Origin: the human T2T-CHM13v2.0 reference genome, Homo sapiens
Strand: one strand, 5' to 3'
DNA length: 64,000 bases
NCBI RefSeq assembly: GCF_009914755.1
Contig: NC_060930.1
Shown: positions 4,102-6,094 of the stretch, one piece after another
Numbering within the stretch: the first letter of the stretch is position 1
How the letters are laid out: every line of letters starts with the position of its first letter
Position numbers and translations under genes: made by a program
The notes under the pieces: model-generated
Seen by the model: only the letters and a program-made list of their open reading frames with translations
Told to the model about the DNA's origin: nothing
Database searches by the model: none

Positions 4102-6094
4102 TGTTGACTAAAACCAAACCAAACAAAAATAAGTTTTTAAAGAATTAAAGTGAGTTTTCTTTAGAAGTCTTATTGCAGGCTGTAGACTGATGACTACAGT
4201 CTGGAAGTAGTTTGTAGAGAGGTTTCGTTAGTAACCTGTTTTGGCTAATATTTTAATCTATTTATATACAGGTGGTGGAGGTTTAGTATGTATAAAATTG
4301 TATTAGATTTGTTTAGAAGTTATATTAAAGTAGAATTATATTAAGGTTTGAACGTAAGAGTATATTTGGGCTGCGCCTCGTGGCTCATGCCTGTAATCCC
4401 AACACTTTAGGAGGCCTGTCTCTACAAAAAATAAAATAATTAGCTGGGCATGGTGGTGCACACCTGTAGTCCCAACTGCTTGGGAGGCTGAGGTAGGAGG
4501 ACCTCCTGAGCCTGGGAGATTAAGGCTGCAGTAAGCCGTGATTGCCACTGCACTCCAGCGTGGGTGACAGAGCACAGAGCAAGACCTTGTCTAAAAACAA
4601 AATACAATATTTTTTTTTTTTTTTTTTTTTGAGACGGAGTCTCGCTGAGTGCAGTGGCGCGATCTCGGCTCACTGCAAGCTCCGCCTCCCGGGTTCAAGC
4701 CATTCTCCTGCCTCAGCCTCCAGATTAGCTGGGACTACAGGCTGGGACACGATGCCCGGCTAATTTTTTTGTATTTTTTAGTAGAGACGGGGCTTCCCCG
4801 TGTTAGCCAGGATGGTCTCAATCTCCTGACCTTGTGATCCGCCCGCCTCAGCCTCCCAAAGTGCTGAGATTACAGGCGTGAGCCACTGTGCCTGGCCTAA
4901 AAACACAAATTTTTAAAAAAGAGTATATTTAGTTATCTGGTTATAGGTTATAGAAGTATAATTATTAATTTTGTTAGACATTATTTTGTGTGTAGAAAAA
5001 GACAAGGACTAGGGCTTTTTATTTTTTAAGGAATATAGTGATTTAGGTAAAGAGAGGTTGGGGGCATTTGGGAGTTGTATGTCTTATTTTGTTTTGTCTC
5101 TACAGTATTTTCTTGGAGAAGTCTTTTTTTGTTTTGTTTTTTGAGACGGAGTGTCACAGTGGTACCATCTTGGCTCACTGCTACCCCCACCTTCTGGGTT
5201 CAAGCAATTTTCTAGCCTCAGCCTCCCAAGTAGCTGGGACTTCAGGCACATGTCACCATGCCCAGCTAATTTTTGTGTTTTTGGTAGAGATGGGGTTTCA
5301 CCATGTTGGCCAGACTGGTCTCAAATTTGTGACCTCAAATGATCCACCTGCCTCGGGCTCCCAGATAGCTGGGATTACAGGCATGAGCCACCACTCCCAG
5401 CCTTGGAGAATTATATGTTATAGAGTCAGGAGTTTTGTAAAATTATGTTGGCAAGTAGAAATGAATAAATATAATTTTTTTATGTTTGTTATTTTGTCCT
5501 ATAAATTTTTTTGTTATAAATTAATTGTCTGGTTGTATTTATAAGATTAATGATTGTTTATATAGATAAGAAGGCTTTTTTTTTTTTTTTAAGGAAGATT
5601 GGTAATTTTGAGTTGTAGGAGTAAGGAATGAGTATTGGGCCTAGTGTGTATATTTGTCTATTTATTGGAAAATACGTTTTGGATTGTATTTATTTTTTAT
5701 TTACTGTGATTTGGTTTTTTATATTTAATATAATATTTTAATAAGACTACTATAAGGATAGTATAGGTTGTGTATAATAGTATATATTTAATAGTATTAA
5801 AGTGAGTTGTAGATTGGAAAATGTGATAATGACTTAATAAAGTTAGAATATCAATTTGTACATTTTAAGATGAATTGTGTGTTTTTGTATTTACATGTAT
5901 TAGAGTTTTTTTATGGAAAGTAATTTTGTACTATGCAAGAGACATAGGGGACCCTGTGCTCTATTTTGTTTTGTTGTTAAAGTATCTTTTGGAGAGCTGT
6001 ATGTTGTCACAGAGTCAGGAGCTTTGTGAAGTTACTTTGTTGGCAAGCAGAAATGAGTAAACATAGCTTTTCATGTTTGTTATTTTGTCTTACA
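4102..6094 (-). mobile_element. ERV1 remnant: MER67-like 3' LTR (4102-5503, three Alus inside), ~430 nt internal sequence, truncated second LTR (5936-6094); hypermutated
   Basis: Two copies of the LTR start (TGTAAGACAAAATAACAAACATG..., TATAGGACAAAATAACAAACAT...); LTR end ...TTTAGTCAACA at 4102; possible TSD aaaag/caaag; strong C depletion on + strand. Confidence 0.75.
4369..5402. mobile_element. Alus nested in the MER67-like LTR: AluJ-like + (4369-4600), young Alu - (4611-4897), Alu - (5124-5402)
   Basis: TSD-like repeats aagagtatattt (~4356 and ~4919) and ttggagaa (~5113 and 5403). Confidence 0.88.

What the first reader, a model, noticed from the sequence alone, without database searches (positions are those of the whole stretch)
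4102..6094. Candidate fossil of near-saturating APOBEC-type hypermutation in an old MER67-like ERV1 provirus
Seen: the + strand is nearly free of C while G is retained. By hand count, 5521-5880 has 12 C vs 70 G in 360 nt, 4261-4370 has 2 C in 110 nt, and 4921-5100 has 9 C in 180 nt. The depletion stops at the element edges and is absent from the nested Alus. Established: APOBEC3 enzymes deaminate C on retroviral minus-strand cDNA (G-to-A on the sense strand); the element is on the - strand, so the + strand is that cDNA strand. Inference: the provirus was edited during reverse transcription, integrated and became fixed. Edited ERVs are a known class; this copy looks both old and extreme.
Basis: partly seen in the sequence, partly recalled or inferred. 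Interest (0 to 1): 0.8.

Follow-up and report, generated by a model that had tools for sequence, protein, structure and literature searches.

The report
Heavily C-to-T edited old retrovirus fossil
This is the broken remains of an ancient retrovirus in an SGK1 intron, in which nearly every editable C on one DNA strand was turned into T before the virus entered the genome; it is an extreme example of a known antiviral scar.

Summary
The hand counts reproduce. 5530-5829 (8 C, 61 G) is the most skewed 300-nt stretch of the window.

The element spans 4102-6094 on the - strand and is a deleted provirus. It has a 160-nt stub of the 5' LTR (5935-6094), a deletion junction at a short microhomology (5934/5935), the last ~430 nt of internal sequence with a polypurine-tract remnant (5506-5934), and a full 3' LTR (4102-5505) carrying three later, unedited Alus.

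About 50 other genomic copies have 17-20% C on this strand; this copy has 3-8%, with G at the family median. At positions conserved in the other copies, C>T is 44 of 60 in the 3' LTR. The same test gives G>A 13 of 111, T>C 6 of 145 and A>G 5 of 158. None of these C sites is CpG. Outside a cold context (G-N-C-T), 36 of 37 Cs are converted.

The 5' LTR stub is only partly edited (11 of 27), and its edits are almost a subset of the 3' LTR's.

Pre-integration deamination of minus-strand cDNA is the best reading. The canonical APOBEC3G/F dinucleotide preference is not seen, and the family name could not be checked. This is a known class with an extreme member.

The parts
4098..4101 (.). Candidate 4-bp target-site duplication, left copy (aaag).
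   Evidence: It lies directly before the LTR end at 4102. Other copies of the family show 4-bp duplications (L010, L014, L020, L021, L025).
4102..4368 (-). 3' LTR, distal part (the R/U5 end in the element's own sense). It ends with the family's terminal motif.
   Evidence: It aligns to 45 other LTR copies, and the terminus matches the paralogue termini. The C>T fraction is 0.49-0.68 over 4102-4281 and 0.96-1.00 over 4282-4375.
4369..4920 (.). Two nested Alu elements, one on each strand, sharing one target duplication (about 4358-4368 and 4921-4931). Not edited.
   Evidence: They match many Alu copies in the fetched loci. 4376-4920 holds 140 C and 134 G of 545. The Alu naming rests on recalled sequence features and on NCBI's repeat mask for 4376-4928.
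4921..5120 (-). 3' LTR, middle part (the first 11 nt repeat the Alu target site).
   Evidence: It aligns to 34 other copies. Pairwise C>T against T>C is 450:84 and G>A against A>G is 127:122 over 21 copies.
5121..5401 (-). Nested Alu with a 9-nt target duplication (5112-5120 and 5402-5410). Not edited.
   Evidence: Sequence read; Alu matches. 5131-5400 holds 74 C and 63 G of 270.
5402..5505 (-). 3' LTR, proximal part (start of U3 in the element's sense).
   Evidence: It aligns to 45 copies. Pairwise C>T against T>C is 384:27. It is a direct repeat of 6005-6092.
5506..5934 (-). Last ~430 nt of the internal region, with a polypurine-tract remnant at its LTR-proximal end (about 5506-5517). This is the most C-poor part: 14 C and 80 G of 429.
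   Evidence: It matches 8 other proviral copies. Paralogues read as the complement of a purine run directly before the LTR start. Pairwise C>T against T>C is 261:33.
5928..5941 (.). Deletion junction (5934/5935) between internal sequence and position ~160 of the 5' LTR, at a 6-7 nt microhomology.
   Evidence: Internal copies and LTR copies both carry a GACT(T)AG-like motif just before the join.
5935..6094 (-). Stub of the 5' LTR (first ~160 nt of U3). Only partly edited.
   Evidence: It aligns to 49 copies at 71-87% identity. C>T is 11 of 27 conserved C sites and G>A is 3 of 36.
6096..6099 (.). Candidate target-site duplication, right copy (aaag), one base beyond the LTR end.
   Evidence: Read. 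It matches the left copy 4 of 4, but with a 1-nt offset (6095 c), so the support is weak.

Best explanation
A class-I (ERV1-like) endogenous retrovirus was reverse-transcribed in the presence of a single-strand-DNA cytidine deaminase of the AID/APOBEC kind. Cytosines on the minus-strand cDNA (the window's + strand) were converted to uracil almost to saturation. They were fixed as T when the plus strand was made, and the dead cDNA was integrated into the germ line and drifted to fixation. Three Alus landed in it later.

Shown here:
- the strand, the copy-specific C>T excess, the element's anatomy and orientation;
- the site preference;
- the weaker editing of the 5' LTR stub.

Inferred:
- that the editing happened on cDNA before integration;
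- that the enzyme was an APOBEC3 relative;
- that the 5' LTR stub records an earlier state of the same reaction. In this reading it descends from plus-strand DNA copied early from the minus strand. The 3' LTR and the region upstream of the polypurine tract stayed, or again became, single-stranded for longer.
For: 1. Copy-specific, one-strand loss of C.
- Pairwise C>T against T>C is 578:86, 450:84, 384:27, 261:33 and 407:86 for the five segments.
- G>A against A>G is 274:248, 127:122, 190:53, 94:124 and 137:149 (27, 21, 31, 8 and 32 copies; symmetric scoring).
- At conserved positions the 3' LTR shows C>T 44 of 60 against G>A 13 of 111 (Fisher 4e-16). The other copies apart from L028 have a median of 0.12.
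- None of the conserved C sites is CpG.

2. Orientation. A polypurine tract lies next to the LTR in the paralogues, which places the element on the - strand. The depleted strand is therefore the cDNA minus strand.

3. Confinement. The nested Alus and both flanks have normal C.

4. An enzyme-like site preference.
- Cs in G-N-C-T are converted 4 of 18; Cs in neither disfavoured context 36 of 37 (p=4e-7).
- Surviving Cs lie in G-N-C-T in 19 of 53 cases, against 8% in the rest of the window (p=2e-8, which uses no paralogues).
- The same rule holds in two other C-poor copies: L028 1 of 10 against 26 of 38, and L003 1 of 13 against 23 of 43.

5. The most C-poor part lies just upstream of the polypurine tract, where edited HIV-1 genomes peak (passages of PMC1635257).

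6. LTR asymmetry.
- Of 27 conserved C sites present in both LTRs, 10 are T in both, 12 only in the 3' LTR, 1 only in the 5' stub and 4 in neither.
- A second provirus of the family (L004) shows the same direction: 13 C>T against 4 T>C from the 5' to the 3' LTR.

7. No genomic copy is more than 78% identical to the edited LTR parts. So this is not a member of a propagated C-poor subfamily.
Against: 1. The dinucleotide signature that the literature uses for APOBEC3G/F (C or T before the edited C) is absent.
- In this copy the edited fraction by 5' neighbour is T 22 of 27, G 19 of 24, A 15 of 23 and C 6 of 11.
- In the partly edited copies pooled it is A 41 of 84, C 12 of 39, G 42 of 108 and T 47 of 109 (p=0.25).

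2. In HIV-1 the LTR just downstream of the polypurine tract is lightly edited. Here the 3' LTR's U3 is as saturated as the internal part, and the R/U5 end is the less edited part. The simple single-strand-time model does not predict that.

3. The Cs complementary to the polypurine tract are also lost, although that tract should have been protected by its RNA primer.

4. Many of this copy's T sites are shared with L028, L003, L006, L002 and L004. Some of the load may therefore be inherited rather than made in this copy's own reverse transcription.

5. 5461-5505 also shows a G>A excess (fraction 0.48), which one-strand editing does not explain.

6. The pairwise sums count the same window sites many times, and all alignments are anchored on the window copy.

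7. No orthologous locus from another species could be examined.
Confidence: 0.74

Rival explanations
1. Stepwise inheritance. The copy descends from progenitors that were already partly edited, with sub-lethal editing accumulating over several replication cycles. Only the last layer was added in this copy's own reverse transcription.
For: The sharing of T states is nested. L028's C>T sites are almost a subset of this copy's: 25 shared, 9 only here, 1 only in L028, 11 in neither (Fisher 1e-4). 8 of the 9 C>T sites of the 5' stub that could be compared with L028 are shared with it; one search lists 9 of 11. A continuum of C>T fractions exists in the family: 0.73, 0.57, 0.41 and 0.33.
Against: This copy's derived states at non-C sites are not preferentially shared with L028, L003 or L006 (38 sites; L028 shares 3 and is not among the 12 best sharers). 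A strong site preference by itself predicts nested sharing between independent events. No close relative exists: the best non-self matches are 77-78% identical. This model also does not explain why the two LTRs of one provirus differ.
Confidence: 0.1
2. Post-integration editing. A double-strand break inside the provirus was resected. The exposed 3'-ended + strand to the left of the break was deaminated in the nucleus (kataegis-like). The break was then closed by microhomology-mediated joining, which made the deletion at 5934/5935.
For: The sharp change in editing coincides with the deletion junction, which sits at a microhomology. The + strand is the strand that resection would expose on the left side. 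Editing weakens about 0.8-1 kb from the junction, over 4102-4281. The left flank 3901-4100 has a GC skew of 0.28.
Against: The right side of the junction shows no G>A excess (3 of 36 conserved G; 137:149 pairwise), although resection should expose the opposite strand there. Conversion of 36 of 37 Cs in favoured contexts without a TC preference is far denser than the breakpoint clusters I recall from the literature, which I did not search. Other copies of the same family show the same strand polarity, and L004 shows the same 3'>5' LTR asymmetry. Surviving Cs in the left flank are not enriched for the cold motif (5 of 33, p=0.19).
Confidence: 0.07
3. Reverse-transcriptase misincorporation under a skewed dNTP pool (T placed opposite template G). 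This is the older, pre-APOBEC explanation of G-to-A hypermutation, and I give it from memory.
For: It would give the same strand-specific G>A in the element's sense. It would not require the pyrimidine 5' neighbour that is missing here.
Against: Near-complete conversion (36 of 37 in favoured contexts) is hard to reach by misincorporation. It would hit both LTRs equally, since they descend from one minus strand, yet they differ.
Confidence: 0.05
4. No editing at all: ordinary decay of an AT-rich, skewed repeat family, or a composition artefact.
For: The family has a mild G>C skew on this strand (median C 17-20%, G 22-25%). The surrounding intron also leans to G>C.
Against: Ordinary copies show symmetric C>T and G>A (medians 0.12 and 0.10). 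This copy's G is at the family median while its C is the lowest of all copies in four segments. T>C (9 of 280) and A>G (12 of 277) are at background level.
Confidence: 0.02

Closest known systems
'Ultra-edited' LTR retroelements (Knisbacher & Levanon 2016, PMC4866542; section 8 and passages read)
   Same: Strand-specific clusters of G>A (element sense) that make up most of the mismatches to unedited relatives. Their threshold is at least 25 G>A sites. This copy shows 52 C>T at the 73 conserved C sites alone. Its C deficit against the family medians suggests roughly 120 or more (my estimate). ERV1 is the class with the most edited sites in their survey.
   Different: Their pipeline needs a similar unedited 'parent' found by BLAST, so it favours young families. 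This copy is 67-86% identical to the relatives compared. They report GG/GA motifs in primates; here the 5' neighbour of the edited C has no effect. I could not check whether this locus or family is in their tables, because the supplements were not readable.
Hypermutated ERV copies flagged by G>A strand bias in human (Ito, Gifford & Sato 2020, PMC6955324; passages read)
   Same: The same test in principle: the G>A rate on the element's plus strand against its minus strand, per copy.
   Different: They compare with RepeatMasker consensus alignments genome-wide. I saw no list of copies, so I do not know whether this copy is among their hits.
APOBEC3-edited HIV-1 genomes with editing maxima just 5' of the polypurine tracts (Suspene et al. 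2006, PMC1635257; passages read)
   Same: The most depleted part here is the ~430 nt just upstream of the 3' polypurine tract.
   Different: Their model and data give a lightly edited LTR. Here the 3' LTR's U3 is saturated, and only the 5' LTR stub and the R/U5 end are less edited.
Ancient primate gammaretrovirus fossils edited by APOBEC3 (Perez-Caballero et al. 2008, PMC2564838; passages read) and the two hypermutated HERV-K proviruses (Esnault et al. 2008, PMC2531183; passages read)
   Same: Germ-line-fixed proviruses with excess plus-strand G>A that remains after removing CpG. The load is variable between copies and between regions of one provirus.
   Different: Those cases are called by GG or GA context, which this element lacks. 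Their loads per length are lower: up to 12 G>A in ~400 nt of CA in the gammaretrovirus study.

Membership tests
LTR retroelement / provirus of ERV class I (ERV1) | Two LTRs in the same orientation bounded by TG...CA, flanked by a 4-bp target duplication | tested here: met
   The LTR termini match those of about 30 copies. Five solo copies show clean 4-bp duplications. In the window the two tetramers match 4 of 4, but with a 1-nt offset.
LTR retroelement / provirus of ERV class I (ERV1) | Polypurine tract directly upstream of the 3' LTR | tested here: met
   A purine run next to the LTR start is seen in L002, L005, L013, L040, L042 and others. In the window copy it survives only as a run of T on the + strand.
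LTR retroelement / provirus of ERV class I (ERV1) | Recognisable gag/pol/env coding remains of gamma-type | tested here: inconclusive
   The window copy keeps only ~430 nt of internal sequence. Ten open pieces from the internal parts of L033 and L042 gave no Pfam match above cut-off. One 94-aa piece has a hydrophobic stretch and weak sub-threshold hits.
A full-text search for MER67 with APOBEC found one paper with incidental mentions (listing only).
APOBEC-type edited ('hypermutated') retroelement | Excess of G>A on the element's plus strand over C>T on that strand, outside CpG | tested here: met
   In window + strand terms, C>T is 52 of 73 and G>A 19 of 163 at conserved non-CpG sites. The pairwise non-CpG fractions are 0.78 and 0.21. 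The control copies are symmetric.
APOBEC-type edited ('hypermutated') retroelement | Editing confined to the retroelement and absent from flanks and later insertions | tested here: met
   The composition of the flanks and of the three Alus is normal. The flanks could be tested only by composition, not by substitution polarity.
APOBEC3G- or APOBEC3F-type signature | Preference for C or T immediately 5' of the deaminated C (GG or GA on the plus strand) | tested here: not met
   In this copy pyrimidine against purine 5' neighbour is 28 of 38 against 34 of 47 (p=1). In the partly edited copies pooled it is 59 of 148 against 83 of 192 (p=0.58). Only the pairwise sums for the 5' stub lean towards pyrimidines (0.56-0.59 against 0.39-0.40). 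Saturation, and the exclusion of poorly conserved sites, may hide a preference.
Sequence-selective ssDNA deaminase (AID/APOBEC family in general) | Reproducible dependence of editing on neighbouring bases | tested here: met
   G at -2 gives 11 of 30 against 51 of 55 (p=6e-8). T at +1 gives 19 of 36 against 43 of 49 (p=5e-4). The rule is reproduced in L028 and L003 and in the surviving Cs without using paralogues.

The most novel reading that the evidence does not exclude
The two LTRs of this fossil record two time points of one editing reaction. The 5' LTR stub descends from plus-strand DNA copied early and froze a half-edited state (11 of 27 sites). The 3' LTR and the sequence upstream of the polypurine tract went on to saturation (22 of 27 at the same sites; 36 of 37 in favoured contexts).

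The microhomology at the deletion junction may mean that the short genome itself arose by an aberrant strand transfer during that reverse transcription.

The context rule has no effect of the 5' neighbour and shows protection by G at -2 and T at +1. It would then be the footprint of an ancestral primate deaminase whose specificity differs from today's APOBEC3G and APOBEC3F.
Probability: 0.2. Interest if true: 0.55.

Novelty: new member of a known kind. Interest (0 to 1): 0.32.

Why it matters
Edited endogenous retroviruses are the fossil record of the conflict between retroviruses and host DNA deaminases, and the class is well described. This copy adds three things.

- It shows how far editing can go in a copy that still reached fixation: about four in five Cs on one strand were lost, and 36 of 37 of those in favoured contexts.
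- The 5' and 3' LTRs of one provirus differ in editing in a nested way. If that is general, LTR-divergence dating of edited proviruses is biased, and the LTR pair could be used to read the timing of editing within reverse transcription.
- Editing this heavy lowers similarity to family models, so such copies can be missed or mis-dated by repeat annotation.

No effect on SGK1, in whose intron the element lies, is suggested by anything seen here.

Tried and rejected
- Naming the family was not possible: there is no Dfam or Repbase here, and the MER67 + APOBEC literature search gave one incidental paper.
- Supplements of PMC4866542, which may list the edited human subfamilies and loci, could not be searched. 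Lee et al. 2008 (PMC2519637) is not held. PMC2041998 had no text on LTRs.
Stop-free pieces gave no Pfam hit above cut-off and no solved-structure relative.
I did not ask again.
- I tested whether the window copy and the second C-poor copy (L028) share ancestry through non-C characters. There was no special sharing. This cannot exclude a common edited founder, because such a founder would differ from its source only by the edits.
- Transcription-coupled asymmetry was considered and rejected: the depletion is confined to the element and spares the nested Alus and the flanks.
- A-to-I RNA editing was considered and rejected: it would give A>G or T>C, which are at background (9 of 280 and 12 of 277).
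- Cross-species orthologues could not be examined with the collections on hand.
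Full report
OBSERVATION

Among all 300-nt stretches of the window, 5530-5829 (8 C, 61 G) is the most skewed; the runner-up has 28 C and 91 G.

After leaving out the Alus and the duplicated Alu target sites, 4102-5934 has 53 C and 201 G in 1000 nt. The rest of the window has 20.5% C and 21.3% G. Other parts, also:
- The three nested Alus are balanced (216 C, 201 G of 822).
- The right flank is normal (71 C, 88 G of 406).
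- The left flank 3876-4101 is mildly skewed (33 C, 51 G of 226).
- The last 160 nt of the element (5935-6094) are only mildly C-poor (21 C, 39 G).

ANATOMY

A search of the window's own genome with 5401-6094 gave 42 matches of two kinds. Many ~160-nt matches fall on 5935-6094, and a few ~300-500-nt matches fall on 5422-5927. Further searches brought the total to 72 loci. After removing self-matches and second fetches of the same genomic place, about 50 distinct copies remained.

blastn and pairwise alignment show that a complete LTR of the family is about 500 nt. In the window it corresponds to 4102-4368, then 4932-5120, then 5402-5505. It is interrupted by an Alu pair (4369-4920) and a single Alu (5121-5401), each with its own target duplication.

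5935-6094 is a second copy of the last ~160 nt of that LTR (direct repeats). 5506-5934 matches only copies that carry internal proviral sequence (8 usable copies).

In those copies the LTR is followed, on the window's + strand, by the complement of a purine run of the polypurine-tract type. The element therefore lies on the - strand. In its own sense it reads as follows:
- the first ~160 nt of the 5' LTR;
- a large deletion;
- the last ~430 nt of internal sequence;
- the polypurine tract;
- a complete 3' LTR.

The deletion junction (5934/5935) sits where internal copies and LTR copies share a 6-7-nt motif.

The left end at 4102 and the right end at 6094 match the termini of the other copies. 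Five solo copies show clean 4-bp target duplications, as class-I ERVs do (recalled). The window's flanking tetramers match 4 of 4 but with a one-base offset, so they are weak support for a single integration.

SUBSTITUTION SPECTRUM

No family consensus was built. Each copy was aligned to each window segment with a scoring scheme that treats all four transitions alike. Alignments covering less than 60% of a segment were dropped.

Summed over copies (27, 21, 31, 8 and 32 copies), copy-to-window changes for 4102-4375, 4921-5130, 5401-5505, 5506-5934 and 5935-6094 are:
- C>T against T>C: 578:86, 450:84, 384:27, 261:33, 407:86.
- G>A against A>G: 274:248, 127:122, 190:53, 94:124, 137:149.

These sums reuse the same window sites many times, so I also counted sites. 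At positions where at least 70% of the other copies agree (L028 left out), 4102-5934 shows C>T 52 of 73, G>A 19 of 163, T>C 9 of 280 and A>G 12 of 277. None of the conserved C sites is a CpG.

As a control, every copy was put through the same test in turn:
- The window's 3' LTR ranks first of 51, with 44 of 60 (G>A 13 of 111, p=4e-16).
- L028 follows with 26 of 46, L003 with 24 of 58 and L004 with 18 of 55.
- The remaining copies have a median C>T of 0.12 and G>A of 0.10.

In composition, the window copy has the lowest C of all copies in four of five segments, with G at the family median except in 5401-5505, where it is lower. The best non-self matches to the edited LTR parts are 77% and 78% identical, so there is no propagated C-poor subfamily.

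SITE PREFERENCE

Editing depends on the neighbours, on the window + strand:
- With G two bases upstream, 11 of 30 conserved Cs are converted, against 51 of 55 otherwise (p=6e-8).
- With T just downstream, 19 of 36, against 43 of 49 (p=5e-4).
- Combined: G-N-C-T 4 of 18; G at -2 only 7 of 12; T at +1 only 15 of 18; neither 36 of 37.

Without using any paralogue, 19 of the 53 surviving Cs lie in G-N-C-T, against 8% of Cs elsewhere in the window (p=2e-8). The same rule holds in L028 and L003. 'Near-saturating' is therefore a fair description.

The base immediately upstream has no effect:
- In this copy, pyrimidine 28 of 38 against purine 34 of 47.
- In the six other C-poor copies and the 5' stub pooled, there is also no effect (p=0.58).

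That is not the GG/GA signature by which APOBEC3G/F editing is usually recognised (passages of PMC4866542, PMC2564838 and PMC1635257). Saturation, and my exclusion of poorly conserved sites, could mask it. The pairwise sums for the 5' stub lean slightly to pyrimidines.

THE TWO LTRs DIFFER

Along the element the non-CpG C>T fraction is:
- 0.49-0.68 in 4102-4281;
- 0.63-1.00 from 4282 to 5925;
- 0.30-0.59 in 5935-6094.

Background G>A is about 0.1-0.2.

At the 27 conserved C sites present in both LTR copies, 10 are T in both, 12 only in the 3' LTR, 1 only in the 5' stub and 4 in neither. A direct alignment (141 sites) gives, from the 5' stub to the 3' LTR, C>T at 11 of 14 Cs, G>A at 7 of 34 Gs, T>C at 4 sites and 2 transversions.

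In the family's other two-LTR proviruses the same comparison gives 13 C>T against 4 T>C in L004 (p=0.049) and 11 against 6 in the little-edited L013.

Established retroviral replication (recalled) offers a reason. The 5' LTR descends from plus-strand strong-stop DNA, copied early from the minus strand. The minus-strand copy that becomes the 3' LTR is displaced later and is copied last. This is an inference and is not shown here. It also does not explain why the R/U5 end is the less edited part, nor why the U3 next to the polypurine tract is as saturated as the internal part. In HIV-1 the LTR is lightly edited and the peak lies just upstream of the tract.

OTHER EDITED COPIES AND SHARED SITES

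Many T states are shared, in a nested way, with L028, L003, L006, L002 and L004. L028's edits are almost a subset of the window's: 25 shared, 9 only in the window, 1 only in L028, 11 in neither.

The window's 38 derived states at non-C sites are not shared preferentially with those copies. The strong site preference alone predicts such nesting between independent events. Even so, inheritance of part of the load from an already edited progenitor cannot be excluded.

AGE

Differences other than C>T between the two LTR copies are 13 of 130 (10%). The 3' LTR differs from conserved non-C states at 32 of 416 sites (7.7%), against a median of 10.7% in other copies (the alignments are window-anchored, which favours the window).

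With the rate of 2.2e-9 per site per year used by Ito et al., these give roughly 23 and 35 million years. Three Alus inserted afterwards. 'Old' is right in the sense of tens of millions of years. No orthologue could be examined.

COMPARISON WITH WHAT IS KNOWN

Edited ERVs fixed in genomes are a described class.
- Knisbacher & Levanon define ultra-edited elements (at least 25 G>A sites forming the majority of mismatches). They count 44 in human and report up to 234 sites per element in primates and rodents (section 8 read).
- Ito et al. flag hypermutated human ERV copies by strand bias.
- Perez-Caballero et al. and Esnault et al. describe edited primate gammaretroviral and HERV-K fossils.

This copy belongs to that class. 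It stands out by the fraction of Cs converted, by its age relative to what pair-based pipelines can detect, by the nested 5'/3' LTR difference, and by the lack of the usual dinucleotide context. I could not check whether the locus is already listed, because the supplements were unreadable.

VERDICT

It is a new member of a known kind, of modest interest.

Rivals and their weights:
- stepwise inheritance, 0.10;
- break-associated nuclear editing, 0.07;
- dNTP-pool misincorporation, 0.05;
- no editing, 0.02.

Noticed in passing
L028 (G000:C1, about 178689120-178689610; locus coordinates about 1138-1628): A second strongly C-poor copy of the same LTR family, a solo LTR on another chromosome. It has 8.5-8.9% C on the homologous strand in three of four parts. 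C>T is 26 of 46 conserved sites, and it shows the same G-N-C-T cold motif.
   Followed up: partly
L039 (G000:C5:154923636-154923996) and L040 (G000:C13:25870669-25871054): The internal parts of these two proviral copies are also C>T rich on the same strand (12 of 17 and 8 of 13 conserved C sites). L039's LTR looks ordinary, so editing seems to be frequent in this family and uneven within a provirus.
   Followed up: partly
L004 (G000:C12:125366040-125369449): Another short provirus of the family, with a 3' LTR, ~380 nt of internal sequence and part of a 5' LTR. Its 3' LTR carries more C>T than its 5' LTR on the same strand (13 against 4 over 182 aligned sites).
   Followed up: partly
window 5461-5505: This 45-nt stretch at the start of U3, next to the polypurine-tract remnant, also shows a G>A excess on the + strand (fraction 0.48 against about 0.2 elsewhere; 190:53 pairwise for 5401-5505). 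One-strand editing does not explain it.
   Followed up: no
window 3901-4100: The unique left flank has a GC skew of 0.28 and 33 C against 51 G in 3876-4101. This is not significant, and its surviving Cs are not enriched for the cold motif (5 of 33). It could not be polarised without an outgroup.
   Followed up: partly
L033:1660-1941, - strand: A 94-codon open piece in the paralogue's counterpart of 5506-5934 has a hydrophobic stretch followed by basic residues. It gives weak, sub-threshold Pfam hits to C-terminal membrane-anchor regions (E 0.002-0.005). It may be the tail of an envelope gene.
   Followed up: partly
window 4110-4124: Where other copies have a run of A near the LTR end, the window copy reads as a short ACCAA-type repeat holding 5 of the few surviving Cs of that segment.
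   Followed up: no
window 4358-4931: Two Alus in opposite orientation share a single ~11-nt target duplication (about 4358-4368 and 4921-4931). This suggests that the second Alu landed in or beside the first one's tail.
   Followed up: no
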